Source: an uncultured Eubacteriales bacterium (GTDB lineage: Bacteria; Actinomycetota; Coriobacteriia; Anaerosomatales; JAAXUF01). From it: a stretch of 64,000 nt of DNA. Numbering within the stretch: the first letter of the stretch is position 1; each line of letters starts with the position of its first letter. The position numbers and the translations under genes were made by a program. Location: positions 9,711 through 73,710 of the forward strand of contig CAYMAN010000009.1 of NCBI GenBank assembly GCA_964388455.1, given 5' to 3'. The notes beneath the pieces were generated by a model, which saw only the letters and a program-made list of their open reading frames with translations, did no database searches and was not told where the DNA came from. This document shows, in pieces, positions 121-48,261 of this stretch.

Positions 121-1848
121 ATGACAACGTGCAGTTTTCGCAAGCCAACGCTGATTCTGATGGGGTTGCTGGTGGGACTGATGCTTGGCGGCTGCACCAC
201 AGAGGTCACGGTGACGAATCCCACAACCGCGGCGAACTCGAAGGCGTGCGGAGACGAGGGCTGCCACGCCCCGGTGGTCTCGAAGCAGGCTGCCGGGCCT
301 CATGAGGCGGCAGCCTGTACGATCTGTCATCCGGGAACCGGCGCAGCGCATGCCAAGGCTCCGAAGGTCGCCGTCGCAACCACTGACTGGCGCGTTGAAT
401 CATGCCGTGACTGTCACGCAGAGGAAGTGGACACCTACCTGTACGACGACAACGCGCAGGCAGGTCCGTTTGGCGGATCGACGCGCATTCCTCCTCAGCC
501 GAAGGTCGCGACGTTCCCTGAGTACAACACCATCGTTGCAGGCAGCGCGTTCGCCAAGGACTACAACGAAGAAGGCGCTCACTCGGTCATGCTTGAGGAT
601 CACTTCGCCACGACTCGCGGCAAGTTCGACACGTGCGTCCAGTGCAAGTCGACCAAGGTGGCCAAGGCGTTCCAGACGGGCTACCCCCTGACGGTCGCAT
701 CGGACACGACGATCACGCTGACGCACACGGCATCCGGAACGGTGCCGGCGAAGCAGGTCTTCATCCCTAAGGGGACCAGACTCACGTACGCAACCGATCC
801 CAAAACGCGCCGCGTTGACTCCAAGGCGGTATTCCCCGACAAGACGACGTACACGTCCAAGCCTTCTGCCAGTGAGGACGCGACCAAGAACTACAACATG
901 ATGTGGGCCGCGACGATCGCCGCGATCAAAGAGACGATGCCGTACGGTGCGAGCTGCAGTCACTGCCATGATCCGCACACCGGGAAGTTCGCCTACGTTC
1001 GTCAGGCGATGATCGAATCCATCGAGGGCACGGGCGGTGTCTCGGGCAAAGGCGGCGTGAATCCCTATGTTGCGGGCTCCGCGAAGAAGATCTCGGAGGC
1101 ATCACTGAAGGATCAGCGCGTCTTGCTCTGTGCGCAATGCCACGTCGAGTACACCTGCGGGAAATCAGGTGTTGACGGCATAGAGCGTGATGCCTACGGC
1201 TGGGCCAAAGCCAAGGACCTCCATAAGGTCTACACGCAGCAGTTCGACTACACCCAGGATTGGACGCAGAAGATCATCGGGCAGCCGCTCATCAAGAGTC
1301 AGCACCCGGAGACCGAACTGTACTGGGAAAGCACGCACTACAACGCCGGCGCGTCGTGCGGCGACTGCCACATGCCAGAGGTGCGCAGCGCACGCGGACG
1401 GGTGTTCCGGAGCCACTGGTTCACGAGCCCCTACAAGTATCAGGACGCGAAGTATTTCACGCCCTTCGCCGAGAAGACGGGCCTGAACCCCGCGTTCAAT
1501 CGCAAACCATGCGCCACCTGCCACGAGGACCGCGAGGCCCAAGGAATCGCCCAGCAGCAGGCGTTCTACAGGCGTCAAGGTGAGATCGAGAAGTTGCTCT
1601 CGGCCTCCGTTGCCCAGCTCGCTAAAGTCGCGGCCGTCAAGCAGGGCGGCGGAAAGCTCGATGCCGCAGCATATGAAAAGGCCGTCGAATCGCATCGGAA
1701 GGCACACGTGATCTGGGAGAACCTCGCTGTCTCAGAGAACTCGATGGGGTTCCACAACTTCGACGAGGTCATGAGCTCGATGGACACTGCCGAGAAGGAC
1801 GTGCGCAGCGCCATCTCGCAGGCGAAGATCGCACGCGGCTCGAAATAG
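121..1848 (+). CDS. Octahaem NrfA/ONR-type cytochrome c nitrite-reductase-like lipoprotein
   Basis: Track ORF 49..1848. I prefer the ATG at 121 (AGGGGG 4 nt upstream), which gives a signal peptide ending in the lipobox LGGC. Haem motifs in order: CGDEGCH (CX4CH, 247-267), CTICH, CRDCH, CVQCK (634-648; the Lys-type active-site motif of NrfA/ONR), CSHCH, LLCAQCHVEY, CGDCHMP, CATCH. Confidence 0.85.
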   Translation: MTTCSFRKPTLILMGLLVGLMLGGCTTEVTVTNPTTAANSKACGDEGCHAPVVSKQAAGPHEAAACTICHPGTGAAHAKAPKVAVATTDWRVESCRDCHAEEVDTYLYDDNAQAGPFGGSTRIPPQPKVATFPEYNTIVAGSAFAKDYNEEGAHSVMLEDHFATTRGKFDTCVQCKSTKVAKAFQTGYPLTVASDTTITLTHTASGTVPAKQVFIPKGTRLTYATDPKTRRVDSKAVFPDKTTYTSKPSASEDATKNYNMMWAATIAAIKETMPYGASCSHCHDPHTGKFAYVRQAMIESIEGTGGVSGKGGVNPYVAGSAKKISEASLKDQRVLLCAQCHVEYTCGKSGVDGIERDAYGWAKAKDLHKVYTQQFDYTQDWTQKIIGQPLIKSQHPETELYWESTHYNAGASCGDCHMPEVRSARGRVFRSHWFTSPYKYQDAKYFTPFAEKTGLNPAFNRKPCATCHEDREAQGIAQQQAFYRRQGEIEKLLSASVAQLAKVAAVKQGGGKLDAAAYEKAVESHRKAHVIWENLAVSENSMGFHNFDEVMSSMDTAEKDVRSAISQAKIARGSK

Positions 1849-1861
1849 TGTCACGGCAGCG

Positions 1862-2686
1862 GTGTACACTGCCCGCATGTCTGACTCAAGCGACATGCGG
1901 GTGGTGTTTCTCGGCTCCGGTTCCGGCGGCAACGCTGTTGCGGTGACCGACGGTGACACCACGGTACTCATAGACTGCGGTTTCTCGGCGCGTGAGGTGG
2001 CACGGCGCATGGCGCTGGCCGGTCTCGATGCGGGATCGGTCGACGCGATCCTGCTCACGCACGAGCACAGCGACCACCTGCGCGGGGTCGAGGTGTTCGC
2101 GAGGCGTCATGGGTGCGAAGTGCTCGCTACCACGGGCACCAGGCGTGCTGCCGGGCTCGACGCGATGGACGCTTGCGTGGTGGGCATCGCCGCCGGTTCC
2201 GAGGTGCGAGTGAAAACGTTGTCGGTGCTGCCGTTCCGCGTCTCGCACGATGCCGCTGAGCCGGTCGGTTTCCGTGTCACTGCAGCCGACGGCACCTGTT
2301 TCGGCCTGGCGACCGACACGGGGGTGCTGACGCCGGAGGCTGCGGAAGGGCTCGCGGGCGTCGATCTGCTGGGACTTGAGAGCAACCACGACCTGCGGAT
2401 GCTGGAAGCGGGGCCCTACCCCGGCTTCCTCAAGCGGCGCATCCTGTCGCGTGACGGGCACTTGTCCAATCCGGATGCGGCGGATGCACTGGAGGCGCTT
2501 GTGTCGAATCGCCTCAAACGGGTGGTCGCGGTACACCGCTCGGATACCAACAACACAGCATCGCTCGCGCGTCGCGGACTAGTGGCGCGTCTGGCCGCGA
2601 TCGGACTGGAGCTGCCGGTCGACGTGGCGCCGCAGAGCACGCCGCTCGACTGCAAACCATCGCAGGGGACGTTGTTCTCGGAGTAG
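1862..2686 (+). CDS. MBL-fold metallo-hydrolase (YycJ/VicX-like)
   Basis: Has the HxHxDH motif LLTHEHSDHLRG and an N-terminal VVFLGSGSGGN strand. The start is uncertain: GTG 1862, ATG 1877 or ATG 1895. Confidence 0.8.
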   Translation: MYTARMSDSSDMRVVFLGSGSGGNAVAVTDGDTTVLIDCGFSAREVARRMALAGLDAGSVDAILLTHEHSDHLRGVEVFARRHGCEVLATTGTRRAAGLDAMDACVVGIAAGSEVRVKTLSVLPFRVSHDAAEPVGFRVTAADGTCFGLATDTGVLTPEAAEGLAGVDLLGLESNHDLRMLEAGPYPGFLKRRILSRDGHLSNPDAADALEALVSNRLKRVVAVHRSDTNNTASLARRGLVARLAAIGLELPVDVAPQSTPLDCKPSQGTLFSE

Positions 2687-2690
2687 CGGG

Positions 2691-4007
2691 TCAGTCTCGG
2701 CCGACCGATTCGAGCAGATGCAGCGCGCTATCGACGTCCGATGCCTCCTGCGCCCCCGCCGCTCGCGCGCGCGTCCACAACTGAGTTGCAACACCGTCCG
2801 TGTAGTCTCGGCCCTCGATGTCGCCGAGAAGTACGACCGGCGTTCCTGACTCGGCGTTCTCGGCGGCGATGCGCAGGTTGTCGACGTTGCCGTGACCGAA
2901 GGGGACGTCGGACACCGCGATCGCGACGGCCGAACGTGCGAGCTCTGCGACGCGGCTGACGCAGGCGGAGTCCATGGGAGCGAACGGCGGGATGAGTGCG
3001 TAGTCGACCCCGAGCGCCTCGGCGAGTGCCTGGTCGACATCGCCTGCGTTGAGCGCACCGGCCACGACTTCCCAACCCTCCAGCACCAGGCGTCGCATCA
3101 GCTGCGAGCCGCACCCTGAGCCGCCGATGACCAGCACGCGACCGCGCGCAACTGGGGCGACGGCGCCGTCGCGCAGCACCGGCGTCACACTGACCGTCCC
3201 GGTGACGGGGTCGATGCCGACTACCGCACGCACGCCGAACACCTCGCGCACGGTGGCTGTGGTGATGGCGCGCGTGGGGGCGTCTGCGGCAGCGATGGTG
3301 CCCGCGGCGACCACGGCGATGCGGTCTGAGTATCGCGCCGCGAGGTCGAGGTCGTGGAATACCGCCAGCACCCCGATGCCCTCGTTGCGAGCGAGGTCAC
3401 GCACGAGGTCGAGAACCTGCAGCCGATGATTGAGGTCGAGGTGGCTGGTGGGCTCGTCGAGCAGCAGGAGCCGAGGCTCCTGCGCGAGCGCCTGAGCGAG
3501 CGCGAGGCGCTGGAGGTCGCCACCGGAGAGCTCGTCGGTCGGCTTCTCGGCCAGGTGCAGTGTGTCGGTGAGTCGCATCGCCCGTTCGACGACTTCGAGA
3601 TCGTGCGCGCCGGGCACTGCGAATCGCGCGAGGTGCGGGTGTCGGCCCATCGTCACGAACTCGCGCGCCTCGATCGAGAACGCCGCTGAGACCTGCTGCG
3701 GCACGACCCCGACGAGTCGCGCACGTTGCACCGCCGACAGCGCTGCAGAATCGGCACCCGCCAGCGACAGCGTCCCGCCGAGCAGGTCGGCGTCGCCGGT
3801 GACCGCTCGGAGCAGCGTCGACTTGCCGGCTCCGTTGGGGCCCACCAGGCCGACGACTTCACCGGCGCGGACCTCGAGCCTTGCGTCGGAGACGACGACC
3901 GCATCGCCATAACCGACTGTGGCTGCGATGTACGAGAGCAGAGGCGTGATGTCGGTGTTCGTCGGGTCGGTGTTCGTCGGGTCGGGGCCCGTCGGGTCGG
4001 GGCTCAT
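2691..4007 (-). CDS. Iron-siderophore/cobalamin-type ABC transporter ATP-binding protein with an extra ~170-aa C-terminal domain
   Basis: Walker A GPNGAGKST, signature LSGGDLQR and Walker B LLLLDEPTSHLD are all present. The start overlaps the permease stop (ATGA at 4004-4007). The protein is 438 aa, whereas this family is typically about 260 aa. Confidence 0.9.
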   Translation of the reverse strand: MSPDPTGPDPTNTDPTNTDITPLLSYIAATVGYGDAVVVSDARLEVRAGEVVGLVGPNGAGKSTLLRAVTGDADLLGGTLSLAGADSAALSAVQRARLVGVVPQQVSAAFSIEAREFVTMGRHPHLARFAVPGAHDLEVVERAMRLTDTLHLAEKPTDELSGGDLQRLALAQALAQEPRLLLLDEPTSHLDLNHRLQVLDLVRDLARNEGIGVLAVFHDLDLAARYSDRIAVVAAGTIAAADAPTRAITTATVREVFGVRAVVGIDPVTGTVSVTPVLRDGAVAPVARGRVLVIGGSGCGSQLMRRLVLEGWEVVAGALNAGDVDQALAEALGVDYALIPPFAPMDSACVSRVAELARSAVAIAVSDVPFGHGNVDNLRIAAENAESGTPVVLLGDIEGRDYTDGVATQLWTRARAAGAQEASDVDSALHLLESVGRD

Positions 4008-4010
4008 CGG
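3951..4010 (-). repeat. Four tandem 15-bp units (gtcggtgttcgtcgg x2, gtcggggcccgtcgg, gtcggggctcatcgg) inside a CDS
   Basis: Read directly from the sequence. The units encode the N-terminal pentapeptide repeats PDPTG/PDPTN/TDPTN of the ABC ATPase. Confidence 0.9.
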
Positions 4011-5071
4011 CGTCGCTCCCCTCTGATCAGCAGCCAGATGAAGAACGGCCCGCCGAGGACGGCGGTCACGATGCCGACCGGTATCTCGATGGGAGCGATG
4101 ATGGTGCGTGCGACCAGATCGGCGAGCACCAGCACCATCGCGCCGGCGAGGAGTGACGCGGGAAGTAGCCTGCGGTGATCGGGGCCGAGCACGAGGCGCA
4201 CCATGTGCGGCACCATGAGCCCAACAAACCCGATAAGTCCCGCGACGGCCACGGCCGCAGCCGTCATCAGCGACGCCGAGGCGAGCATGAGCAGCTTGAA
4301 ACGCTCGACCGACAGGCCGAGATGACCCGCGCGCTCGTCGCCCAGGAGCATGAGGTTGAGCTCGCGAGTAGACAGGAGTGGGAACACGACCCCGAGCACC
4401 AGCATCGGGGCAATCATGGCGATGTAGGGCCAGGACGCCTGCGAGAAGCCGCCCATCATCCAGTAGACGATGGCGGACATCTGCGCGCGCGAGACCACCA
4501 TCAGAAACGACGTGACCGCCGCCAGCGTGTAGGACAGCGCGACGCCGGCGAGCAGCAGCGACGTCGGGTCGAGGCGACCGCGAGTCGATGCAAGCCGCAC
4601 TACCAGCAACATCGTGAGCATAGCGCCCGCGAACGCGGCGAGTGGCACGGCCCCGAACCGCAACATGGTGGCGCTCGCCGTCGCGACGAACGCGATCATG
4701 GCTCCCAGCCCCGCGCCGCTCGAGACGCCGAGGATGTAGGGATCCGCGAGTGGATTGCGAAACAGCGCCTGGTAGAGCGCGCCCGCACCGGCGAGCGCGG
4801 CTCCCACCAGCGCCGCCAACACCACCCGCGGCAGCCGCACACCGACGATCAGCGTGTCGGACAGCCCGGAGGCGGTTCCGGTTAACGCCCTCATCAGCGC
4901 GCCGAGAACCTCACCGGGCGCCACCGACACGGCCCCCCACGCCACGCCCGCCACCATCGCTCCACCGAGTCCGAGCGACAGCACCGTGAACGCGACGACC
5001 GAGGAGACGTGTCGGCGGGTGCGGGTCACAGGATTACTTCGAGACCAGATCAGGATGGAGTGCGGCAGCAA
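4004..5071 (-). CDS. FecCD/BtuC-family ABC transporter permease
   Basis: Polytopic membrane protein with the typical FecCD C-terminus (GIVTAVLGGPFFIWLL). The start is uncertain: TTG 5071 or GTG 5029, the latter lying just after the binding-protein stop. Confidence 0.88.
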   Translation of the reverse strand: MLPHSILIWSRSNPVTRTRRHVSSVVAFTVLSLGLGGAMVAGVAWGAVSVAPGEVLGALMRALTGTASGLSDTLIVGVRLPRVVLAALVGAALAGAGALYQALFRNPLADPYILGVSSGAGLGAMIAFVATASATMLRFGAVPLAAFAGAMLTMLLVVRLASTRGRLDPTSLLLAGVALSYTLAAVTSFLMVVSRAQMSAIVYWMMGGFSQASWPYIAMIAPMLVLGVVFPLLSTRELNLMLLGDERAGHLGLSVERFKLLMLASASLMTAAAVAVAGLIGFVGLMVPHMVRLVLGPDHRRLLPASLLAGAMVLVLADLVARTIIAPIEIPVGIVTAVLGGPFFIWLLIRGERRR

Positions 5072-6008
5072 TCTCCTTCAGGCCCTCGACCACGCGCGGT
5101 CCGGGACGGGACACGAGGTTGTCGTCGAGGATGACGACACGACCGTTCTTTACCGCCGAGAGCTCACTGAAGCCAGCACGCTGCGACAGCTGAGCGGGAT
5201 CGCTCATCGAACCCTTGGTCGCCATGTACACCGCGGGGTTGTCCTTGACGACCTGCTCGGCCGAGTAGGCGACCCAGCTGGGCTGCGTGACGACGTTCTT
5301 GCCGCCAGCGAGCGTGATGAGCTCGTCGAGCAGCGTGCCGGTGCCGGCGGTGTAGAGCGGGTTCTGCGCGATCTCGACGAACGCGGTGACAGCGTCGGTG
5401 GCCTCGACCGACTTGACGACAGCGTCGACGTCGACCTTCATGCCATCGACGAGCGCGGCGGCCTGCGAGATGGCGCCGGTCGCCTTACCGGTGCGCTCAA
5501 TGGCGCTGTACACGCCGTCGAGGTTCTGCGGGTCCAACGCGATGACCGTGGCACCGAGCGCCTCGAGCTTGGCGAGCACTTCTGCCTGCACGCCTGTGGT
5601 CGCCAGAATCAGATCAGGCTTGGCCGCGGCGATCGCCTCGATGTTGGGTGTGGTGAAGTCGCCGATCTTGGTGATCTTGGTGACTTCGGCAGGGTAGTCG
5701 TCGTAAGTGGTGACGCCGACGACCTTCTCGCCAAGGCCGAGCGCGAACGCGATCTCGGTGTTGGCGGGCGCGAGCGAGACGATTCGCTGGGGCTCGGCCT
5801 TGATGGTGACGGTGCGGCTGGCGTCGTCGGTGATGGTCACCGGGAACGTTGCCGCGACTGCCTTGGGGGCCTCGGCGGCGGGCTTCTCGGCAGGGGCGGT
5901 ACAGCCGATGAGAGCGCTCAGGGCGAGCGCGGCGATGGCCACCAGGGCGAACCGGCGGGCGGTGCGGGTGGTGCGGACGTTGCGAGTGGTGCGGGCGTTA
6001 CGGGACAT
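5034..6008 (-). CDS. BtuF/FhuD-type periplasmic substrate-binding lipoprotein (ABC importer)
   Basis: Preferred start is ATG 6008, with GGAGGA upstream. Signal peptide plus lipobox (LIGC). Class III binding-protein features are present (VVGVTTYDDYP, PDLIL). Confidence 0.85.
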   Translation of the reverse strand: MSRNARTTRNVRTTRTARRFALVAIAALALSALIGCTAPAEKPAAEAPKAVAATFPVTITDDASRTVTIKAEPQRIVSLAPANTEIAFALGLGEKVVGVTTYDDYPAEVTKITKIGDFTTPNIEAIAAAKPDLILATTGVQAEVLAKLEALGATVIALDPQNLDGVYSAIERTGKATGAISQAAALVDGMKVDVDAVVKSVEATDAVTAFVEIAQNPLYTAGTGTLLDELITLAGGKNVVTQPSWVAYSAEQVVKDNPAVYMATKGSMSDPAQLSQRAGFSELSAVKNGRVVILDDNLVSRPGPRVVEGLKEIAAALHPDLVSK

Positions 6009-6054
6009 GCATCCTCCTTCAGGGGGTCGTGGTGGACGCGTCCCGCACACACAC

Positions 6055-6089
6055 GAAAACCCGCCACCTGCGATGCAGGATGAGCGGGT
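6055..6089 (-). terminator. Riboswitch expression-platform hairpin (intrinsic terminator/attenuator)
   Basis: On the minus strand: ACCCGC-tcat-CCTGC-atc-GCAGG-tg-GCGGGT followed by TTTTCG. It lies between the B12 aptamer and the binding-protein start codon. Confidence 0.55.
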
Positions 6090-6099
6090 CCTCGACTGG

Positions 6100-6330
6100 T
6101 TCGGAGCGGTTCGGGGTGATCGACGGGGTTCCGGCGACACCGCGAGCCGGCCTCAAGTCCTCGAAGGCCGCGTCGCGCATCACTCGGCAGGTCTCCTGAC
6201 TGGCGATCGCAGCACGCACGGTCGCATCACAGTGGCGGGTACCGTCCCGGATTCTCACCGGGTTCCCTATTCTCCCGCGGCTCTCGCGCACGGGCACCGA
6301 ATGACGCCTGTTCAATTGGCAATGCGGAGA
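6100..6330 (-). promoter_or_regulatory. Cobalamin (B12) riboswitch
   Basis: The minus strand carries AGGGAACCCGGTGAGAATCCGGGACGGTACCCGCCACTGTG (6228-6266) and the B12 box CCAGTCAGGAGACCTGCC (6186-6203). It sits directly 5' of the BtuFCD-like operon. Confidence 0.85.
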
Positions 6331-17241: not shown

Positions 17242-18315
17242 CTAGTCGTCCTCGGGCTGCCTCACGTGACAGCGCACGCAGAACGCGGGCTGATGACACT
17301 CGAAACAGCCGGCTGCGCCGCGCGCCTCGACCTCGAGGAAGTGCTGTTTGGCCCACGTGCCCTTGGTGGGGTCGTAGCTCACGTGGTGGCACATGCTGCA
17401 CAAGTCCGGCTTCTGCTTGTGGCACCTAGCGCACATCGCGCGGTTGGCCTCGGCGTTGATACCGTGCCCTGTCTTGCCCTGCCCCCAGCCCTCGGGGTGC
17501 GGCATCTCGAGGCCGTGACAGTCGGTGCAGAAGGCTTTGGTGTGGCACATGACGCACTGCTTGGGATCGGCCTTGGCAACCACCGCATGTCCGCGGTTCC
17601 ACTTCGCGGTCTTGTGTGACGTCGGCTTGAGCGCGTACCCGACCGGATGGCACACACTGCACTGCGCCGAGGCCGTGGGATACTTGGTCGTGCCGTGGCA
17701 GGTGAAGCACTGCGACATCAGCGACAATGGCGTGCCCCGATCAGGCAGCGGATGCGCAGTGCGGACGTGGCACGACACGCAAGATTTGTTGCGTTTCGCG
17801 TGCTCGGCGTGGTCGATGAGAATGCGGAAACCGGAGGTGGCCTTGCGGTTCACGTCGTGGCACTGCAGACAGATCTCGTCGGCCATAGGCTCCGTGCCGG
17901 GCAGGCGACCGTCGACCGGGTCAGGGTAGCCGCCGCGCACGTGCGCTACGACGTCGCGTGCCAGAAGTGCGGTCTGACTCACGACCGATTGCGGCACTTC
18001 GTACCACCGATGCGGGGCCGTGTGGCATCTCACGCAGCTCACCGCGGCGTGCGCCGACCGCTCCCAGGTCGCATGGCGCGGCTGCATCTCATGACAGCTC
18101 GCGCACAGGATCGGCGACGCGGTCACGACGTCCCACATGCCGAGCAGCACGATGATGCCGAACACGATCGCGACGATTCGCAGCACCCGTGGCCTCGCCG
18201 AGGACGCCGTGGCAGCTGTCGCCGGGGATTCGCCCACGCTTGACTCGGCGGTCAGCTCGGCTGCGCCCGCCTCCTCTGCTGGTCCCTGATCGCTCATGCC
18301 GGAAGTGTGCTCCAC
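17242..18315 (-). CDS. Membrane-anchored dodecahaem cytochrome c with an N-terminal NapC/NirT/NrfH-type tetrahaem domain
   Basis: GTG 18315 lies 5 nt after GAAGGA. One N-terminal TM helix, then 12 CXXCH motifs. The first four follow the NapC/NirT pattern (LCASCHEM..W..S.H....CVRCH ... CLQCH ... H.EH....CVSCH..TAH). Confidence 0.9.
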   Translation of the reverse strand: MEHTSGMSDQGPAEEAGAAELTAESSVGESPATAATASSARPRVLRIVAIVFGIIVLLGMWDVVTASPILCASCHEMQPRHATWERSAHAAVSCVRCHTAPHRWYEVPQSVVSQTALLARDVVAHVRGGYPDPVDGRLPGTEPMADEICLQCHDVNRKATSGFRILIDHAEHAKRNKSCVSCHVRTAHPLPDRGTPLSLMSQCFTCHGTTKYPTASAQCSVCHPVGYALKPTSHKTAKWNRGHAVVAKADPKQCVMCHTKAFCTDCHGLEMPHPEGWGQGKTGHGINAEANRAMCARCHKQKPDLCSMCHHVSYDPTKGTWAKQHFLEVEARGAAGCFECHQPAFCVRCHVRQPEDD

Positions 18316-18316
18316 G

Positions 18317-19189
18317 CTAGTCCTTCACGAGTTCGAGCGTCGGGTTGAAGTTGTCCCTGGGCACCTCGCCGTGACACTTCTTGCAGAATGCGCCCGTGTG
18401 GCACGCCTCGCAACTGCGGTGCTTCTTGACCTGTTCGCCGTGTGTCTCGCGCCACTTGGCGGTGTGCGAGCGCGGACGCATCTCGTGGCAGGTGGTGCAC
18501 CATGCCTCGTTCCACTTGTGGCACCTGGTGCAGTCGCCTCCCTCGGCCTTCTCGGCGTGGACGATCGTCCAGCTGGCGGCCTTGTGCGTCGCGGGTGCGG
18601 CTTTGTCGGTATGGCAGGTGGGGCACCCGTTCTTGGCAGTCTTGCCGTCGTGGCAAGTCAGGCAGCCGGTCATGGGCGGCGTGTTCTTGCCCTCGGGACT
18701 TTTGTCGTGGACCAGGTAGTTGTGGCACTCGATGCAGTCGAGCTTGAGGATCGAGACATGCGCGCGGTGCGGGATCAGGAGGTCACCCTTGGGCGAGACG
18801 GTGCGCAGATCCAGGTGACAGCGCTCGCATGCGGCATTGGTCGGCTTGGGGAACGTTGCCGGTTCCCAGTCCGGCATTGCCAGCGACAGGTAGAACTCGC
18901 CGAGCATTCGCACCGCGTAGCCAGACTGCGGGAGGACCCGCGGTGGCACGTGGCACTGCTGGCAGGTCGTTTTCGCGTGGACCGACTTTTCCCATGCCTG
19001 GTACTTGGGGTTCATGCGTTCGAACCGCTGCAGGAACGCCGGCCGAGTCCCGATGTAGGCCGGCACGATCACCAGAACGAAGATGCCGAAAGCCACCAGG
19101 CCCCACAACAGCAATCGTTTGCGCTTCTCGGCGGGCGTGGTCGGCTGCTCGGTGTCCATGATCTCCGGACTCTCGTTGGTCTCGGGCAT
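18317..19189 (-). CDS. Membrane-anchored nonahaem cytochrome c (paralogue)
   Basis: ATG 19189 overlaps the upstream stop (TGATG). One TM helix and 9 CXXCH motifs. Confidence 0.9.
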   Translation of the reverse strand: MPETNESPEIMDTEQPTTPAEKRKRLLLWGLVAFGIFVLVIVPAYIGTRPAFLQRFERMNPKYQAWEKSVHAKTTCQQCHVPPRVLPQSGYAVRMLGEFYLSLAMPDWEPATFPKPTNAACERCHLDLRTVSPKGDLLIPHRAHVSILKLDCIECHNYLVHDKSPEGKNTPPMTGCLTCHDGKTAKNGCPTCHTDKAAPATHKAASWTIVHAEKAEGGDCTRCHKWNEAWCTTCHEMRPRSHTAKWRETHGEQVKKHRSCEACHTGAFCKKCHGEVPRDNFNPTLELVKD

Positions 19190-20058
19190 CAGTGGCACTT
19201 CCCGCAGAACTTCTTCTCGTCGTGGCAGACGAGGCAGCCCTTGCCGCCCGTCGTCGCACGCTCGGCGTGGCCCGTCTTCCAATTACCGACGTGCGTCGCG
19301 GGACGCCGTTTGTGGCAGTCGGCGCAATAGTCAGGCGTCCAGTTGTGGCACTTGCCGCAGTCCATCGTCTCCGACATCGTGCCGTGCACCTTGAGCCAGT
19401 CCTTGCGCTCGTGCGTCTCGGGCGTCTCCTTGCGGGTGTGACAGTCGGTGCACTTGTTCGATGCCTTCTTGCCGTCGTGGCAGGTCTCGAGACACATCTC
19501 CATCTCGGGACGGTTGAATCCCCGGTTGTTCACCGTGTGCACCAGATCCTTGTGACACACCGTGCAGTTCATTCCGAGGACCTCGACGTGCGCCCGGTGC
19601 GGAATCAGCAGGTCGCCGTTGGGCGAGACCTGGCGGTAGTCGGTATGACACTTCTGACAGGCTTCATGCGTGGGCGGCTCGAGCAGGTTGGTCTCGTTCG
19701 CACCCTGCGCGAGCTGCGAGTAGAACGCCGGGATCGACCTGGCCGAGAAGGACGCAAACCCCTTCACGCCCGGCTCGACGTGACAGCTCACACAGCTCAT
19801 ACGGCCGTGCGTGGACGTGCGCCACGCCTCCATCCGCTCATGCATGCCCGGGTAGCGTGCGTAGTATCCCGGCTGCAGCGTGGAGAACACCGGCAGCACC
19901 AGCAGGAAGACGACCAGCGCGAGCAGCGCGCCGATGACGATGCGGCGCGTTGGGCGCAGCTTCTTGGGCGCGGGGGCGTCGGCGTGGGGCGCTTGGGCCG
20001 CCGGCGTCTCCGCGACCTTGTCGTCCGACGGGCTCAGGGTGTCGTCGCGCTCGTCCAC
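19189..20058 (-). CDS. Membrane-anchored cytochrome c, 8 CXXCH + 1 CX3CH (paralogue)
   Basis: GTG 20058 directly abuts the upstream TAG stop. One TM helix. CLETCH lies at 19477-19494. Confidence 0.9.
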   Translation of the reverse strand: MDERDDTLSPSDDKVAETPAAQAPHADAPAPKKLRPTRRIVIGALLALVVFLLVLPVFSTLQPGYYARYPGMHERMEAWRTSTHGRMSCVSCHVEPGVKGFASFSARSIPAFYSQLAQGANETNLLEPPTHEACQKCHTDYRQVSPNGDLLIPHRAHVEVLGMNCTVCHKDLVHTVNNRGFNRPEMEMCLETCHDGKKASNKCTDCHTRKETPETHERKDWLKVHGTMSETMDCGKCHNWTPDYCADCHKRRPATHVGNWKTGHAERATTGGKGCLVCHDEKKFCGKCH

Positions 20059-21072
20059 CTAGCGCATCTCCTTGAACTGCTTGTGGCAATCCTCGCAGTA
20101 CTGCTTCTTGTGGCACTCGAGGCAGCGTGCCTCGTTCTCGCCCAACTTCGAGTGGCCGCCGATCCAGGTGTCGGTAGAGCCGTGGAAGTCCGGTCGCGTG
20201 GTGTGGCATTCCTGGCACTGCGCATCGGACACGTGGCAGAGCAGGCACTTGGGCCGATCCTTGAGCGCCTCGGCGCCGTGCTGCTTCATCCAGGTCTTCT
20301 TGGTGTGCAGCACCTCGATAGCCTTCAGGCTGGTCTGCATCGGCCGGGCGGTGAACACCGGCGTCTTGCCGGTGGTGTGACACATGGTGCACTGCGCAGC
20401 GGTATGGCAGGTCTCGATGCAGCCGTTCGCACCGACGCGCTGAACCACTGCGGGGTGATCGACCTTCCACTGCACAGCGGTCTCGCCCAGTGCGTGGTGG
20501 CAGGTGAAGCAGTCCGTGCTCTTCTTGGTGCCGACGTGGCAGCCGTACGACACGCACACGCCGGAAAACGGCATCTTCTTATGCTTCACCATCACGGTGG
20601 GCTGGTGCGCGGTCCACTTGTGACAGGTCACGCAGTCGCGCGTCTCGCTTGCAACGCGCATGTGCGCGGGGTGCGGGATGCGGCTGGTGCGCTTGATGTC
20701 GTCGCTCCGGTCCGTGATGTGACACGAGCGGCACGCATCGCGCGTCGGCCGATCGAACTTCAGGAACCTCGTGGGCGCGTTGCGGCTGAGCAGCCCGGCG
20801 TAGAACTCCGCCGAGACGGCCAGCTGGTAGCGGACCTGACCGCGCGCGGGGACGTGGCAGCTCGCGCACGGGATGTCCTGGTGCGTTGATGCGGCAAGTG
20901 TCGTCGAGCTTTTCGCCAGCGAGTGGAACCGGGAGAAGAACGCCGGTTGCGTCGCCGCGATCATCGGCAGGATGGCCAGCACGACCACGGCCACCAGGAT
21001 GCCGACGGCGATCCACTTCACGGTGAGCGGGTTGATCCCCCAGCGCGACTTCTTGGTCTCGTTCGGGCTCAT
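20059..21072 (-). CDS. Membrane-anchored cytochrome c, 9 CXXCH + CX4CH + CX3CH (paralogue)
   Basis: ATG 21072 lies 7 nt after the nrfD-like stop. One TM helix. CVSYGCH (20536-20556) and CIETCH (20404-20421). Confidence 0.9.
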   Translation of the reverse strand: MSPNETKKSRWGINPLTVKWIAVGILVAVVVLAILPMIAATQPAFFSRFHSLAKSSTTLAASTHQDIPCASCHVPARGQVRYQLAVSAEFYAGLLSRNAPTRFLKFDRPTRDACRSCHITDRSDDIKRTSRIPHPAHMRVASETRDCVTCHKWTAHQPTVMVKHKKMPFSGVCVSYGCHVGTKKSTDCFTCHHALGETAVQWKVDHPAVVQRVGANGCIETCHTAAQCTMCHTTGKTPVFTARPMQTSLKAIEVLHTKKTWMKQHGAEALKDRPKCLLCHVSDAQCQECHTTRPDFHGSTDTWIGGHSKLGENEARCLECHKKQYCEDCHKQFKEMR

Positions 21073-21079
21073 CGGCTGG

Positions 21080-22414
21080 TCACCCGACCTTGGCGGTGTC
21101 AGCGGCGAACTCGGGGGTCAACGCGGGTCCGCGGTGCGGCGTCGGCTCGGCGGCGGGCTCGAGCGCGGGCTCCGGCGGGTCGTAGGGCGACGGGCCGTGA
21201 TGCGCATGCTCGGCGAGCTCCTCCTCGGGCACGTGCAGCGGGAGGATCTTGGTGGCGGCCGTCATGATCAGCAGGCCGAACGATAGGATGAAGATCGCGA
21301 TGCCGACCTCGGTCAGGCTCGGCATATACGGCGGCGTGAACTGGCCGAGGGGGTTGACCGCGAAGCCCATCGCCATGAGCGAGTAGCGCTTGAGGAAGAT
21401 CGCGAGCACGTACATCGCCGCCGCGGTCAGCTGAACCGCCGGCAGATGTCGCGTGCTCTTGCGGGACAGCAGGATGAACGCGGTGATCCCGAGGATGAGC
21501 ACAGGGACAAAGGCGAACGCGTAGTCGCCGGTCAGGAACTCGGCGAAGCGGATGGTGTGGCCCGGCTTGGCCGAGGTCGGCCAGAAGATGGTGAGGATCT
21601 CAACGACCAGCAGGAAGAGGTCGATGATGATGACCGTCGCGAGCAGCGTCGAGAGGCTCCGGAACATGCTCGGCTTGAACTTGGTGACCTTCAGCTTCTG
21701 CATGATGTAGGCCGAGATCATCAGGAGTGCTATGCCCGACGCTGTGGCCGAGGTCAGGAAGATCGGGACCATGACGGCCGAGTTCCACAGCTCGCGCGAC
21801 TTGTTCATCGAGAGCACGAACGCCGTCGTGGTGTGGAGATAGACCGCGAACGGGAGCGCGATGAGCGTCATGCGGGTCGCGAGTTTCTCGCCGCCCTTGC
21901 CGGTGATGAGAATCCACAGGTCGACGAAGCAGATGATCATGTAGATGTTGGCCGCACTACCGGTGTAGACGAACGGCGAGGTCACGTTGGGCGTGAGCAG
22001 CATGTAGACCGCGCGCCACGGGCGCTCCATGTCCGTGATGATGCCCATGAGCGCCATCATGACCAGCACGCCGGCCTGCAGGACAGCGATACGGGAGAGC
22101 GGCCGGAACTGCTCGGCGCCAAAGAGGTGGACGCTGGCGTAGACCACGAGCCCGCCCGCCGAGAGCCCCACGTAGTACATATAGTTAGTGAACCAGAGGC
22201 CCCACGGGTAGTTGTCGCGCATCGCCATGACGGCGCCGCCTTCGGTCATCGCCGCGCCCCATGACATGAGGCCGAGGATGAGGCCGCAGCCGAGCAGCGA
22301 GACGAAGGCCCAGTAGCGCGGGCTCGCGTTCAGTACGGCGCCGACGTTCCAGTCGATGCCGATGAAGCGCTTGATGCCGGGTCGAGGTGTGGACACGAGA
22401 CTCACGCCCATCAC
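21080..22414 (-). CDS. NrfD/PsrC-family polytopic membrane (quinol-interacting) subunit
   Basis: A 444-aa protein with many TM helices and an NrfD-like N-terminus (YWAFVSLLG..., NYPWGLWFTNYMYYVGLSAGG). Start overlaps the upstream stop (ATGA). Confidence 0.9.
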   Translation of the reverse strand: MMGVSLVSTPRPGIKRFIGIDWNVGAVLNASPRYWAFVSLLGCGLILGLMSWGAAMTEGGAVMAMRDNYPWGLWFTNYMYYVGLSAGGLVVYASVHLFGAEQFRPLSRIAVLQAGVLVMMALMGIITDMERPWRAVYMLLTPNVTSPFVYTGSAANIYMIICFVDLWILITGKGGEKLATRMTLIALPFAVYLHTTTAFVLSMNKSRELWNSAVMVPIFLTSATASGIALLMISAYIMQKLKVTKFKPSMFRSLSTLLATVIIIDLFLLVVEILTIFWPTSAKPGHTIRFAEFLTGDYAFAFVPVLILGITAFILLSRKSTRHLPAVQLTAAAMYVLAIFLKRYSLMAMGFAVNPLGQFTPPYMPSLTEVGIAIFILSFGLLIMTAATKILPLHVPEEELAEHAHHGPSPYDPPEPALEPAAEPTPHRGPALTPEFAADTAKVG

Positions 22415-23367
22415 CCCACATACCAGATCATAGGTTCATTGCCGTACTCTTCCTTGAGCCGCATGACGCGGCGGGTCTTCAGCAGAATCGAGACCTCGCT
22501 CTCGGGGTCGTTCAGGTCCCCGAACTTGCGAGCGCCGACCGGACACGCCTCGGTGCAGGCGGTGGTGCCGCCGTTGCGCGTGCGCTGGACGCAGAAGGTG
22601 CACTTCTCCACGACGCCGGCCTTCTCATGGAGAGGGACCTTGGGGTTGATCTCGGCCTTAGGGACCTCGGGCTCGACCCAGTTGAAGTGCCGCGCGGCGT
22701 AGGGGCAGGTGACCATGCAGTTGCGGCACGCGATGCACTTGTCGTAGTCGATGACCACGATGCCGTCCGGGTCCTTCCAGGTCGCGATGACCGGGCACCC
22801 GTAGACGCACGTGGGCTTGGCGCACTGCATGCACTGGACGGGCAGGTACCACTTCTCGGGGTCGCCACCCTCTTTGTACTCGGCGTTGGAGTGCTCGAGG
22901 TCGAAGCCGCCCACGTCCATCTCGAGCACCTGGATGTAGGTGAAGCCGGAATTGCGGCCGATGTTGTTCTCCTTGACGCACGCGTAGACGCACTTGCGAC
23001 AGCCGATGCAGGCCTTCACGTCGATGACCATCGCCCAGTTCTGATCGCCGGGCTCATCGGCGTAGCTGACCGTGTGGCCGGGGTAGTTGACGGGGTGGTT
23101 CTCCTCGATGATGTGGTCGATCGCCTCGTTGCCGGTGGACTCACGCGCGGATTCCTCGGCGATGGCGACCTGCGGGAGGGCCGAGACCACCGCGGGGATG
23201 ACGCCCGCTGCCACGACGCCGGCGCCGATGCCGAGACTCTCGAGGAAGCGTCGGCGCGAGACCGTGTGGCCGGGCTCGCAGGCTCCCGGCTGACACGCAC
23301 CCGGTTCAGGAGCGCCGGGTACGGTTGCACCGGGCTGCTGCGCCCCGGGCACGATGGGCTTGCTCAT
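22411..23367 (-). CDS. Tat-exported 4x[4Fe-4S] ferredoxin-type subunit (NrfC/PsrB/HybA/ActB-like)
   Basis: ATG 23367 overlaps the upstream stop (ATGA). Twin-arginine motif SRRRFLESLG. Four Cys clusters: CIGCRKCVYAC, CMQCAKPTCVYGCP, CIACRNCMVTCP, CTFC...CTEACP. Confidence 0.9.
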   Translation of the reverse strand: MSKPIVPGAQQPGATVPGAPEPGACQPGACEPGHTVSRRRFLESLGIGAGVVAAGVIPAVVSALPQVAIAEESARESTGNEAIDHIIEENHPVNYPGHTVSYADEPGDQNWAMVIDVKACIGCRKCVYACVKENNIGRNSGFTYIQVLEMDVGGFDLEHSNAEYKEGGDPEKWYLPVQCMQCAKPTCVYGCPVIATWKDPDGIVVIDYDKCIACRNCMVTCPYAARHFNWVEPEVPKAEINPKVPLHEKAGVVEKCTFCVQRTRNGGTTACTEACPVGARKFGDLNDPESEVSILLKTRRVMRLKEEYGNEPMIWYVG

Positions 23368-24116
23368 GTGCGTGCCCTTCCTAGTATCAGCCAGCCGATG
23401 AGACCGGCGGCGATGACGATGAGGACCGAGGCTCCGAGGGTGAGCCACAACGGCGTGTGCACCGGCGGCGCGACGGGCGGAGATGCGAGCGGCGTGAACA
23501 CAGCGCGTTCCGAGACCGCGCGCACCTGGAAACCGGTGCCGACAAACGGAAGCAGCGGACCGGCGTAGATCCACTGCGGGCTGTGCGGGTCGTGACACCC
23601 TGCGGCGGTGCACTTGGCGAGCCGCTTGCCGTGGGTGCCGGCCAGCCACTCCTTGTACTTGGGCGAGTGGCACTTCTCGCAGACCCTGGCGACGTCGCCC
23701 TTGATGTCGACGGTGGTGCCGTCCATGGTCTTGAGCTTGCCGGGGTTCTTGGCGGCGTCGTCGTGGCAGACGAGACACGCCTCGCCTTCCGCGGCCAGTC
23801 GATCGTGACCGACGAGCTTGACCTGATGCCCCTTGAAGTCGTTGGGCAGCTTCTTGGTCGGCTTTCCGCCCGCGCCCATGACCACCGGATGGCAGTCCGT
23901 GCACGGGTAGAAGAACAGATCGCCCGAGGCGGCCTGCCCGGCAAACGCCGCGGGCGCGGTCGCCAGAACAACCGATGCGACCAAAACGAGAAGTAGGGAA
24001 ACAACTACGAAAGCCCCGCGTGACCAGGGGCGGCTCCGGGCCGTGAGTCCCGGATCTGTGAACGAATGCTGCACGTCTATGGTATTGACACCACCTTGGT
24101 CGCGAGTTGTTCCCAC
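23364..24116 (-). CDS. Tetrahaem cytochrome c3-like protein with signal peptide and C-terminal TM anchor
   Basis: GTG start. Signal peptide ending AFA-GQ. Haem motifs CTDCH, CLVCH, CEKCH and CTAAGCH (CX4CH, 23592-23612). The C-terminal hydrophobic helix is LWLTLGASVLIVIAAGLIGWLIL. Confidence 0.85.
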   Translation of the reverse strand: MGTTRDQGGVNTIDVQHSFTDPGLTARSRPWSRGAFVVVSLLLVLVASVVLATAPAAFAGQAASGDLFFYPCTDCHPVVMGAGGKPTKKLPNDFKGHQVKLVGHDRLAAEGEACLVCHDDAAKNPGKLKTMDGTTVDIKGDVARVCEKCHSPKYKEWLAGTHGKRLAKCTAAGCHDPHSPQWIYAGPLLPFVGTGFQVRAVSERAVFTPLASPPVAPPVHTPLWLTLGASVLIVIAAGLIGWLILGRART

Positions 24117-24193: not shown

Positions 24194-24260
24194 ATGCCCA
24201 TTCCGACGTCGTCGGCTATGGTCAGGCATGAAAAGTGCCGCGGTTTCCAAAGGAGCGCAC

Positions 24261-24944: not shown

Positions 24945-24951
24945 GCCCGCC

Positions 24952-32237: not shown

Positions 32238-32470
32238 CGCCGCGCCCCAGCAAGACATGCGCTCGACGCGCTCGGCTGCGACTACGGGTACAAACCCCGC
32301 AGACGTCGCCGACCGAAGATGCGTCCCATGGTCCCCGCTCCCCCGCTCGGCATCAGCGTCGACATCACGGTTCATTCCCGTTGGGCCCGCCCGCACGACA
32401 ACTCGGACGCGCTCCTGGGCATAGACCGAAGCGTGGGTGCAGGCACACGACCACGAGAGATGGGCCGACG

Positions 32471-48252: not shown

Positions 48253-48261
48253 GGAGCGACG

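What the first reader, a model, noticed from the sequence alone, without database searches (positions are those of the whole stretch)
121..1848. Lipoprotein-anchored octahaem NrfA/ONR-type enzyme with three extra N-terminal haems, the first of them a CX4CH motif
Seen: the motif order is CX4CH, CXXCH, CXXCH, CVQCK, then four CXXCH. The last five match the NrfA pentahaem core (CXXCK active site, LLCAQCHVEY, CGDCHMP). The signal peptide ends in the lipobox LGGC. Established: a CXXCK-ligated catalytic haem defines the ammonifying nitrite reductases, and octahaem relatives (Thioalkalivibrio-type ONR) have a three-haem N-terminal extension. Inference: this is a Gram-positive, membrane-tethered ONR-like enzyme. 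No nrfH is adjacent in the visible part, since the window starts 120 nt upstream of the gene. The NapC-like cytochromes at 17-21 kb are therefore candidate electron donors. The substrate (nitrite, hydroxylamine, sulfite) cannot be read from the sequence.
Basis: partly seen in the sequence, partly recalled or inferred. Interest (0 to 1): 0.55.

Follow-up and report, generated by a model that had tools for sequence, protein, structure and literature searches.

The report
Lipid-anchored octahaem nitrite reductase, Coriobacteriia type
This gene encodes a membrane-tethered eight-haem enzyme of the known octahaem nitrite reductase (ONR) family from an uncultured Gram-positive Coriobacteriia bacterium; it most likely turns nitrite into ammonium, and differs from the studied enzymes by an unusual first haem site, a lipid anchor and an extra small beta-sheet insert.

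Summary
ORF 121-1848(+) encodes 575 aa with a lipobox (LGGC, Cys25) and eight haem motifs in the stated order: CX4CH, 2x CXXCH, CVQCK, 4x CXXCH.

The closest solved structures are the octahaem nitrite reductases TvNiR and TaNiR, by sequence, by profile (E about 1e-60; best pentahaem NrfA 6e-48) and by fold. The catalytic and Ca-site residues are conserved: Lys176, Arg166, Tyr344, His395, Glu343, Lys392, Gln394, and the ONR Tyr-x-Cys pair (Cys346). A crude tree puts it in the octahaem clade, apart from pentahaem NrfA (200/200 bootstraps).

It belongs to a Coriobacteriia-specific subclade known only from metagenomes, with no characterised member. New details:
- CX4CH at haem 1 is seen only in Actinomycetota ONRs (14/19 versus 0/18 elsewhere).
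- A roughly 65-aa beta insert follows CXXCK and has no structural analogue in the PDB.
- No nrfH or ccs gene lies within 10 kb in three relatives with called genes.
- One relative has a tetrahaem-NrfC-NrfD module directly upstream of its ONR. The window carries that module at 21.1-24.1 kb, which makes it the best donor candidate.

Verdict: new variant of a known kind, moderate interest. Substrate and physiological role remain inferred.

The parts
121..1848 (+). ONR-family octahaem cytochrome c gene (575 aa, stop included)
   Evidence: Pfam PF02335 at 1.4e-45; best PDB hits are TvNiR and TaNiR. AF2 model has pLDDT 92.2.
121..195 (+). Sec-type lipoprotein signal peptide; lipobox L22-G-G-C25 at 184-195
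   Evidence: Read from the sequence. A lipobox-like motif is present in most of the >=48%-identity clade and in 16/19 Actinomycetota genome loci. No signal-peptide predictor was available.
247..267 (+). Haem 1 site, CX4CH (C43-GDEG-C48-H49)
   Evidence: C43/C48/H49 are invariant. The motif aligns to haem 1 of TvNiR and TaNiR with a 2-residue insertion. It is restricted to Actinomycetota.
316..330 (+). Haem 2 site CTICH
   Evidence: invariant.
403..417 (+). Haem 3 site CRDCH
   Evidence: invariant.
616..618 (+). Arg166, aligned to catalytic Arg131 of TvNiR
   Evidence: alignment; invariant.
634..648 (+). Haem 4 (catalytic) site CVQCK; Lys176 is the predicted proximal ligand
667..888 (+). About 65-aa five-strand beta insert between haem 4 and haem 5 (K176..C279 = 102 aa, versus about 38-40 in TvNiR and the short ONRs)
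   Evidence: No structural analogue in the PDB (best E = 1).
955..969 (+). Haem 5 site CSHCH
1129..1158 (+). Haem 6 site CAQCH followed by V-E343-Y344-T-C346 (Ca ligand Glu, catalytic Tyr, ONR Tyr-x-Cys cysteine)
1294..1305 (+). K392-S-Q394-H395 (Ca-site Lys and Gln, catalytic His)
1357..1371 (+). Haem 7 site CGDCH
1510..1524 (+). Haem 8 site CATCH
21080..24116 (-). Candidate quinol-oxidising electron-supply module. Membrane-anchored tetrahaem cytochrome at 23364-24116, NrfC-like 4Fe-4S protein at 22411 to about 23360, NrfD-like membrane subunit at 21080-22414.
   Evidence: Pfam. Orthologues at 56/66/71% identity lie directly upstream of the ONR orthologue, on the same strand, in L015. The link to this window's ONR is inferred.
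17242..21072 (-). Four tandem multihaem cytochromes (12, 9, 9 and 11 haem motifs), each with an N-terminal transmembrane anchor. They lie downstream of the NrfCD-like module and are possible electron relays.
   Evidence: A homologue of 17242-18315 sits directly upstream of the ONR in L020. The link is weak and inferred.

Best explanation
The gene encodes a member of the octahaem cytochrome c nitrite reductase (ONR) family from an uncultured Coriobacteriia (Actinomycetota) bacterium.

Inferred steps:
1. The protein is exported by Sec and lipidated on Cys25, so it stays on the outer face of the cytoplasmic membrane of a single-membrane cell.
2. It carries eight c-type haems. Seven are bis-His electron-transfer haems, and the first is attached through a CX4CH motif.
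3. Haem 4 is Lys-ligated (CVQCK). There, nitrite (and probably hydroxylamine and NO) is reduced to ammonium, using the Arg166/Tyr344/His395 triad and a Ca2+ site formed by Glu343, Tyr344, Lys392 and Gln394, as in TvNiR and NrfA.
4. There is no NrfH. Electrons most likely come from menaquinol through a membrane module encoded elsewhere. The best candidate is the tetrahaem-NrfC-NrfD module at 21.1-24.1 kb, possibly with the anchored multihaem cytochromes at 17.2-21.1 kb.

Shown here: the motifs, residue conservation, fold, clade placement, taxonomic setting and gene neighbourhoods. Inferred: haem occupancy, lipidation, substrate, electron donor, and whether the role is respiratory or detoxifying.
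For: - Motifs and lipobox.
- Pfam Cytochrom_C552 at 1.4e-45.
- PDB by sequence: TvNiR 2.7e-32 in two stretches that include the tri-haem N-domain, TaNiR 6e-32, pentahaem NrfA about 1e-21 or weaker.
- Family profile against the PDB: TaNiR 2.7e-60, TvNiR 6e-60, best NrfA 6e-48.
- AF2 model pLDDT 92.2, pTM 0.90. Foldseek: TvNiR 2.7e-15 (TM 0.65-0.68), TaNiR 2.5e-14, then NrfAs; MccA only 1e-2.
- Invariant or near-invariant across 115 homologues: R166, K176, Y344, K392, H395, E343, C346, Q394.
- NJ tree: octahaem versus pentahaem split 200/200; Coriobacteriia clade 200/200.
- Close relatives are all Coriobacteriia/Actinomycetota MAGs. Flanking genes are 92-94% identical to a Coriobacteriia MAG.
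- Donor: in L015 the order is tetrahaem-NrfC-NrfD-ONR on one strand, with 56-71% identity to the window's module. In L020 a homologue of window 17242-18315 is directly upstream of the ONR.
- TaNiR is reported to act as an ammonifying nitrite reductase in vivo (PMC12142623, citing Sorokin 2023).
Against: - No member of this subclade has been purified or assayed.
- The NCBIfam NrfA equivalogs are far below their cut-offs (92 vs 595 bits and 72 vs 692 bits). This excludes pentahaem NrfA proper and shows how divergent the protein is.
- The window has no nitrate reductase gene and no cytochrome c maturation or CXXCK-specific haem lyase gene. None lies within 10 kb in the three relatives with called genes that share this neighbourhood.
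- The gene neighbourhood in most relatives (glutaredoxin, Rieske/FTR-like, MBL hydrolase, FecCD transporter) says nothing about nitrogen metabolism.
- The two cultured Anaerosomatales (related Coriobacteriia) do not reduce nitrate or nitrite. Whether they carry this gene was not established (PMC9686372).
- The donor link rests on one locus (L015) among the 15 Coriobacteriia-clade genome loci examined (L005-L019).
- The Foldseek TM-scores are only about 0.6-0.68.
Confidence: 0.72

Rival explanations
1. Same enzyme chemistry, but the role is protection rather than respiration. A constitutive, stand-alone surface enzyme removes toxic nitrite, NO or hydroxylamine (and perhaps peroxide) and does not support growth on nitrate or nitrite.
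For: - The gene is monocistronic, or paired only with an MBL hydrolase, and has no dedicated partner in most relatives.
- No nar or nap gene in 64 kb.
- The cultured Anaerosomatales do not respire nitrate or nitrite (PMC9686372).
- Detoxifying roles are described for NrfA (PMC12285233).
Against: - Only 64 kb of the genome was seen.
- In L015 the orthologue lies in one gene string with a quinol-dehydrogenase-type module, as expected for a respiratory enzyme.
- TaNiR, another ONR, is reported to be respiratory (PMC12142623).
Confidence: 0.3
2. The physiological substrate is a sulfur oxyanion (sulfite, or tetrathionate/thiosulfate-derived species), as in MccA or Otr, and not nitrite.
For: - TvNiR crystallises with sulfite bound (PDB 3f29).
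- A role for NrfA in sulfite reduction has been suggested for some organisms (PMC12285233).
- Cultured Anaerosomatales use thiosulfate or sulfur (PMC9686372).
Against: - The full nitrite-reductase active site is conserved.
- There is no MccA-type CX15CH or Cu-site signature, and the MccA fold match is only E 1e-2.
- Otr was not hit by the sequence, profile or fold searches.
Confidence: 0.08
3. It is a terminal or relay cytochrome of the extracellular electron-transfer (metal-reducing) network of this multihaem-rich lineage, comparable to the NrfA-like surface cytochrome OcwA of Thermincola. Nitrite reduction would then be only a side activity.
For: - The window encodes at least six other multihaem cytochromes.
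- Related Anaerosomatales are Fe(III) reducers with 17-18 multihaem cytochromes (PMC9686372).
- The protein is surface-tethered.
- The family profile weakly matches OcwA (6i5b) at 4.6e-6 over about 40 residues.
Against: - OcwA similarity is marginal, while ONR similarity covers the whole length.
- The Lys-ligated haem, the Arg/Tyr/His triad and the Ca site are under strict conservation. That is unnecessary for a pure electron relay.
Confidence: 0.06

Closest known systems
TvNiR / TpNiR, octahaem nitrite reductases of Thioalkalivibrio (PDB 2ot4, 3f29, 3sxq)
   Same: - Eight haems in the same order, with CXXCK at haem 4.
- A tri-haem N-terminal domain that aligns (stretch 1).
- Arg/Tyr/His triad, Ca-site Glu/Tyr/Lys/Gln, the Tyr-x-Cys pair, and long C-terminal helices.
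- Best fold match.
   Different: - Only about 20% identity in the structural alignment.
- Haem 1 is CX4CH instead of CXXCH.
- A roughly 65-aa beta insert after CXXCK, and a roughly 19-aa insert before haem 8.
- A lipoprotein of a monoderm rather than a soluble periplasmic hexamer.
- Sits in a different deep branch of the ONR tree.
TaNiR, octahaem nitrite reductase of Trichlorobacter ammonificans (PDB 8rv0)
   Same: Same family and motifs, and the best profile hit (2.7e-60). It is the ONR whose respiratory ammonifying role is reported as proven in vivo (PMC12142623).
   Different: TaNiR is 495 aa with short K..C spacing, CXXCH at haem 1, and a Gram-negative periplasmic setting. It groups with TvNiR, not with the query clade.
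Pentahaem NrfA (E. coli, W. succinogenes, Desulfovibrio; NrfHA and NrfABCD systems)
   Same: The C-terminal five-haem catalytic core, CXXCK, CAQCHVEY, the catalytic residues and the Ca site. The L015 arrangement (cytochrome-NrfC-NrfD-ONR) resembles E. coli NrfBCD feeding NrfA.
   Different: - Three additional N-terminal haems.
- Scores far below the NrfA equivalog cut-offs.
- A separate clade, 200/200.
- No NrfH.
Hydrazine dehydrogenase (HDH) of anammox bacteria, as precedent for CX4CH in an octahaem enzyme
   Same: A rare CX4CH motif at one electron-transfer haem, diagnostic of a subfamily. In HDH it marks the solvent-exposed electron exit haem (PMC6469936).
   Different: HDH is HAO-type (His-ligated catalytic haem, Tyr cross-link) and its CX4CH is at haem 3. 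Here it is at haem 1 of an ONR. No homology closer than the superfamily level.

Membership tests
Octahaem nitrite reductase (ONR; TvNiR/TaNiR type) | Eight c-haem binding motifs in the order 3x CXXCH, CXXCK, 4x CXXCH | tested here: met
   Eight motifs in that order, all invariant in the family. One deviation: motif 1 is CX4CH. It aligns to haem 1 of TvNiR and TaNiR. Saghai et al. 2023 describe all ONRs as 3x CXXCH (PMC10716430), so this is a variant.
Octahaem nitrite reductase (ONR; TvNiR/TaNiR type) | Lys of CXXCK as proximal ligand of the catalytic haem 4 | tested here: met
   CVQCK at residues 172-176; K176 is invariant. Met at sequence level only; ligation itself was not observed.
Octahaem nitrite reductase (ONR; TvNiR/TaNiR type) | Catalytic Arg/Tyr/His triad (TvNiR R131, Y303, H361) | tested here: met
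   R166, Y344 and H395 align to them and are invariant in 115 sequences.
Octahaem nitrite reductase (ONR; TvNiR/TaNiR type) | Ca2+ site residues (TvNiR E302, Y303, K358, Q360) | tested here: met
   E343, Y344, K392 and Q394 are aligned and invariant or >=90% conserved.
Octahaem nitrite reductase (ONR; TvNiR/TaNiR type) | Cys two residues after the catalytic Tyr (Tyr303-Cys305 covalent link) | tested here: met
   Y344-T-C346. The Y-x-C pattern is in 114/115 family members and 55/57 octahaem sequences, but also in 7/17 pentahaem NrfAs sampled. Formation of the covalent bond cannot be tested here.
Octahaem nitrite reductase (ONR; TvNiR/TaNiR type) | ONR fold: tri-haem N-domain plus NrfA-like catalytic domain with C-terminal helices | tested here: met
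   AF2 pLDDT 92.2. The top eight Foldseek hits are ONR structures (E 3e-15 to 6e-14, TM 0.58-0.68).
Octahaem nitrite reductase (ONR; TvNiR/TaNiR type) | Phylogenetic placement within the octahaem clade, separate from pentahaem NrfA | tested here: met
   NJ tree of 74 sequences: octahaem versus pentahaem split in 200/200 bootstraps. The method is crude (Kimura distances, partial TvNiR and TaNiR sequences).
Octahaem nitrite reductase (ONR; TvNiR/TaNiR type) | Nitrite-to-ammonium activity; stable hexamer | not testable with these tools
   Needs purified protein.
Pentahaem cytochrome c nitrite reductase NrfA (NCBIfam NF008339 / TIGR03152) | Score above the curated equivalog cut-off; five haems only | tested here: not met
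   92.5 bits versus cut-off 595, and 72.3 versus 692.5. Eight haem motifs.
Pentahaem cytochrome c nitrite reductase NrfA (NrfHA / NrfABCD systems) | Adjacent nrfH, or nrfBCD plus a dedicated CXXCK haem lyase | tested here: not met
   None in the window near the gene, and none within 10 kb in L002, L004 or L084. No cytochrome ORF adjoins the gene in most Coriobacteriia-clade loci. L015 is the exception, with cytochrome-NrfC-NrfD upstream.
Octahaem tetrathionate reductase (Otr) | Eight CXXCH without CXXCK; Lys ligand from elsewhere; catalytic haem in the N-terminal module | tested here: not met
   CXXCK is present. No Otr (1sp3) hit by sequence, profile or fold.
MccA octahaem sulfite reductase | CX15CH/CX17CH eighth haem motif, Cu site, MccA fold | tested here: not met
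   No long-spacer motif. Foldseek E only 1e-2, TM 0.17.
Bacterial lipoprotein | Signal peptide ending in a lipobox [LVI][ASTVI][GAS]C | tested here: met
   L22-G-G-C25 after a basic n-region and hydrophobic core; present in most of the clade. Judged by pattern only, without a dedicated predictor. Lipidation itself is not testable.

The most novel reading that the evidence does not exclude
Actinomycetota have their own lineage-specific form of the octahaem nitrite reductase, adapted to life without a periplasm. In this reading the enzyme is lipid-anchored on the cell surface. Its entry haem is rebuilt as CX4CH, much as CX4CH marks the exposed electron-exchange haem in hydrazine dehydrogenase. 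An added beta insert serves for docking or oligomerisation. The enzyme is wired to menaquinol through a tetrahaem-NrfC-NrfD module and anchored multihaem cytochromes instead of NrfH. That would make it a previously unrecognised Gram-positive DNRA module, and one that motif-based onr surveys (3x CXXCH filter) undercount.
Probability: 0.3. Interest if true: 0.55.

Novelty: new variant of a known kind. Interest (0 to 1): 0.4.

Why it matters
ONRs are the less studied of the two enzyme types that retain nitrogen as ammonium (DNRA). Only proteobacterial and Desulfuromonadia-type enzymes have been characterised.

This gene represents a coherent Coriobacteriia clade: about 85 sequences at >=48% identity, which collapse into essentially one full-length 50%-identity cluster among 1.84 billion representatives. 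It combines an intact ONR active site with three untested features: CX4CH at haem 1, a lipid anchor and a beta insert.

If the enzyme is active, DNRA or nitrite-detoxifying potential extends to subsurface, cytochrome-rich Gram-positives. It would also give a natural test case for two questions. How does a System II-type maturation apparatus handle CX4CH and CXXCK in one protein? How is an ONR supplied with electrons without NrfH?

The published statement that all ONRs carry 3x CXXCH (PMC10710430 is not the id; the paper is PMC10716430) suggests that such variants may be filtered out of gene-centric surveys.

The finding is not fundamentally surprising. The family, the chemistry and the presence of onr in Actinobacteriota are already on record.

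Tried and rejected
- NCBIfam NrfA equivalogs: far below cut-off, so the protein is not filed as pentahaem NrfA.
- nrfH, ccs, nar and nap genes: Pfam scans of about 50 window ORFs found none. None was found in three relatives' +/-8-10 kb flanks.
- The beta insert (residues 183-256) was modelled alone (pLDDT 85.5) and searched against the PDB. The best hit was E = 1.0 (legume lectin fragments), so it gives no functional clue.
- Promoter and terminator scan of 1-2800: no promoter-like site, and no terminator between the ONR and the downstream MBL hydrolase gene. This is uninformative about co-transcription.
- Upstream intergenic alignment: only a short conserved 'TATTCCCA' block, and no recognisable FNR/NsrR-type palindrome was seen by eye.
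- Conserved synteny (glutaredoxin + Rieske/FTR-like, then ONR-MBL, then the FecCD transporter) was considered as a functional operon. It was judged more likely to be lineage-level conservation of the neighbourhood, because the partners are cytoplasmic or transport proteins.
- Literature: no paper combines NrfA with 'lipobox', and none describes CX4CH in an ONR. Sorokin et al. 2023 on TaNiR is not in the held library.
- Otr, MccA, HAO and OcwA were considered and rejected as families.
- The organism's identity could not be fixed beyond 'Coriobacteriia'. The best genome match to the ONR is 78%.
Full report
OBSERVATION. The ORF at 121-1848 (+) encodes 575 aa. An in-frame ATG at 49 exists. ATG 121 is preferred for three reasons: an AGGGGG Shine-Dalgarno 6 nt upstream, the 575-aa gene call on a 100%-identical public contig (P0001/L001), and a conserved ATG at this position in relatives. 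That alignment also shows that the database start of P0005 is called too far downstream. The N-terminus MTTCSFRKPTLILMGLLVGLMLGGC is a textbook lipoprotein signal with Cys25.

WHAT IT IS. Pfam gives Cytochrom_C552 (1.4e-45). The two NCBIfam NrfA equivalogs score far below their cut-offs (92 vs 595 bits and 72 vs 692 bits), so this is not a canonical pentahaem NrfA.

Against all PDB sequences, the best hits are the octahaem nitrite reductases TvNiR (2.7e-32, in two stretches, one covering the tri-haem N-domain) and TaNiR (6e-32). Pentahaem NrfAs follow at about 1e-21 or weaker. A profile of 115 homologues sharpens this: TaNiR 2.7e-60, TvNiR 6e-60, best NrfA 6e-48. An AlphaFold2 model built on that alignment is confident (pLDDT 92.2, pTM 0.90). 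Its top eight Foldseek hits are ONR structures (E 3e-15 to 6e-14, TM 0.58-0.68), followed by NrfAs. MccA appears only at 1e-2, and Otr and HAO do not appear.

ACTIVE SITE. In the HMMER alignments, chain positions equal the published TvNiR numbering, which gives this mapping:
- R166 = R131
- E343/Y344 = E302/Y303
- C346 = C305, the cysteine that is covalently linked to the catalytic Tyr in TvNiR
- K392/Q394/H395 = K358/Q360/H361

In the 115-sequence alignment, R166, K176, Y344, K392, H395 and all eight haem motifs are invariant. E343, C346 and Q394 are at least 90% conserved. The Y-x-C pattern occurs in 55/57 octahaem sequences, but also in 7/17 pentahaem NrfAs sampled. It is therefore typical of ONRs but not exclusive to them.

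PHYLOGENY AND TAXONOMY. I built a neighbour-joining tree of 74 sequences. It included family members, additional octahaem and pentahaem sequences from GTDB genomes, and partial TvNiR and TaNiR sequences transcribed from the HMMER output. It separates pentahaem from octahaem proteins in 200/200 bootstraps and recovers the query's clade in 200/200. TvNiR and TaNiR form a separate basal ONR branch. The query lies in a large group that carries an insert after the CXXCK motif.

All relatives at >=50% identity come from Coriobacteriia/Actinomycetota metagenome-assembled genomes, with no isolate among them. The best genome match is 78%, to a Coriobacteriia MAG. The flanking genes are 92-94% identical to that MAG, so the window comes from a close relative of it. 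Among 1.84 billion 50%-identity representatives, the clade collapses into essentially one full-length cluster.

Sources annotate these proteins as 'ammonia-forming cytochrome c nitrite reductase subunit c552'. A global survey already counted onr in four Actinobacteriota assemblies (PMC10716430, supplement). The kind is therefore known, but no member of this clade is characterised.

WHAT IS DIFFERENT.
(i) Haem 1 is CX4CH. It aligns to the CXXCH of TvNiR and TaNiR as a two-residue insertion inside the motif. It is present in 84/115 family members; 30 have CXXCH and one has CX5CH. In named genomes it occurs in 14/19 Actinomycetota-clade ONRs and in 0/18 ONRs from other phyla. It is found in two distinct Actinomycetota subclades. 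Saghai et al. state that all ONRs have 3x CXXCH, so this variant is undescribed there. A precedent exists in the wider superfamily: hydrazine dehydrogenase binds its exposed haem 3 through a diagnostic CX4CH (PMC6469936). Other cytochromes in this window also carry CX3CH or CX4CH motifs.
(ii) A lipobox is found in most of the Coriobacteriia clade and is rare in ONRs from other phyla, where three of 18 sampled loci showed a lipobox-like pattern.
(iii) The spacing from Lys176 to the haem-5 Cys is 102 residues, against about 38-40 in TvNiR, TaNiR and the short ONRs. The extra roughly 65 residues form five beta strands. They have no structural analogue in the PDB. The insert is shared with ONRs of 588-721 aa from Nitrospirota, Acidobacteriota and other Actinomycetota.

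CONTEXT AND ELECTRON SUPPLY. The identical contig L001 extends 354 nt upstream to a divergent glutaredoxin gene. In 11-12 of the 15 Coriobacteriia-clade genome loci the neighbourhood is as follows: glutaredoxin plus a Rieske/FTR-B-like protein (divergent), then the ONR and an MBL-fold hydrolase, then a convergent FecCD-type ABC transporter. There is no nrfH, ccs, nar or nap gene within 10 kb in the three relatives with called genes, nor in the window's 64 kb.

The window does encode a cluster on the minus strand at 17.2-24.1 kb:
- a membrane-anchored tetrahaem cytochrome (23364-24116)
- an NrfC-like 4Fe-4S protein
- an NrfD-like quinol-interacting subunit (21080-22414)
- four TM-anchored multihaem cytochromes with 9-12 haems each; 17242-18315 has a NapC/NirT N-terminal domain

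In L015, from an actinobacterial MAG whose ONR is 51% identical, orthologues of the tetrahaem, NrfC and NrfD proteins (56, 66 and 71% identity) lie directly upstream of the ONR on the same strand. In L020 a six-haem homologue of 17242-18315 immediately precedes a more distant Actinomycetota ONR. This gene-neighbourhood evidence makes the NrfCD-type module the best candidate donor, analogous to NrfBCD in E. coli. It rests on few loci and remains an inference.

MECHANISM. Inferred from the conserved anatomy:
1. Sec export.
2. Haem attachment at eight sites.
3. Lipidation at Cys25.
4. Electron entry through the N-terminal tri-haem domain, possibly at the CX4CH haem.
5. Six-electron reduction of nitrite to ammonium at the Lys-ligated haem 4.

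Whether this is respiratory or protective is unresolved. The stand-alone gene and the inability of cultured Anaerosomatales to reduce nitrite (PMC9686372) favour detoxification. The L015 operon and the reported respiratory role of TaNiR (PMC12142623) favour respiration. Sulfite reduction and a role in extracellular electron transfer are minor rivals.

VERDICT. The protein is a member of the ONR family, with all sequence- and fold-level defining features met. It belongs to a lineage-specific, uncharacterised Actinomycetota variant. Interest is moderate: 0.4.

Noticed in passing
window 17242-24116 (-): A seven-gene respiratory-type cluster: TM-anchored tetrahaem cytochrome (with a CX4CH fourth motif, CTAAGCH), NrfC-like 4Fe-4S protein, NrfD-like membrane protein, then four paralogous cytochromes with 11, 9, 9 and 12 haem motifs, each with an N-terminal TM helix. 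A divergently transcribed two-component system (24228-26736) flanks it. It looks like a quinol-to-surface electron conduit of a Gram-positive.
   Followed up: partly
L015 781-5982 (CAMTXY010000214.1): In this actinobacterial MAG the tetrahaem-NrfC-NrfD genes (56-71% identical to the window's) are followed directly by the ONR orthologue on the same strand. Its ONR has CX4CH at both haem 1 and haem 3 (CADAECH) and no lipobox.
   Followed up: partly
window 30651-32237 (+): A nine-haem cytochrome with MtrC/MtrF-like domain II/IV and paired-CXXCH matches, a signal peptide and a Ser/Thr/Pro-rich C-terminus. It may be a cell-surface terminal reductase. Its 3' end overlaps the long ORF call 31874-33454 (NAD-dependent epimerase), whose true start is probably further downstream.
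   Followed up: no
window 19189-21072 (-) and 23364-24116 (-): Non-canonical haem motifs recur in this genome's cytochromes: CLETCH and CIETCH (CX3CH), CVSYGCH and CTAAGCH (CX4CH). The organism's maturation system presumably handles them routinely.
   Followed up: no
L001 3-227; L002 8803-9745; L004 8906-9854; L084 5612-6513: A glutaredoxin gene and a fused ferredoxin-thioredoxin-reductase-B/Rieske gene are transcribed divergently from the ONR in most of the clade. In L084 a Pyr_redox_2 flavoprotein gene is additionally inserted directly upstream of the ONR on the same strand. Any functional link is unknown.
   Followed up: partly
window 121-6140 versus L005 and L002: The ONR is less conserved than its neighbours between close relatives: 80-83% identity against 90-94% for most neighbours (MBL hydrolase, FecCD; also the Rieske and binding proteins in L005). 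The extracytoplasmic enzyme appears to evolve faster.
   Followed up: no
L001 about 313-325, aligned with L002, L003 and L005: A short conserved block (GGTnTATTCCCAnCG) lies in the otherwise divergent intergenic region upstream of the ONR gene. It may be a promoter or operator element.
   Followed up: no
window 57200-61699 (+): This 1499-aa ORF is mostly antisense to the Lon protease gene (57092-59515, -) and has no Pfam match. Only its 3' part (about 59.6-61.7 kb) looks like a real gene. That part encodes a roughly 690-aa secreted protein with an N-terminal signal/TM segment and a C-terminal TM anchor, function unknown.
   Followed up: partly
window 46645-54958: A haem catalase gene (46645-48252) lies next to a ClpB, MerR/HspR-like, DnaJ, GrpE, DnaK heat-shock cluster. 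Catalase is notable in a lineage whose cultured relatives are strict anaerobes.
   Followed up: no
L002 about 10001 (protein P0005): The database protein P0005 (564 aa) starts at an internal Met. The DNA alignment shows a conserved upstream ATG that gives the same MT..R...P..L N-terminus as the query. Some apparently lipobox-less or short N-termini in the family may be start-site artefacts.
   Followed up: partly
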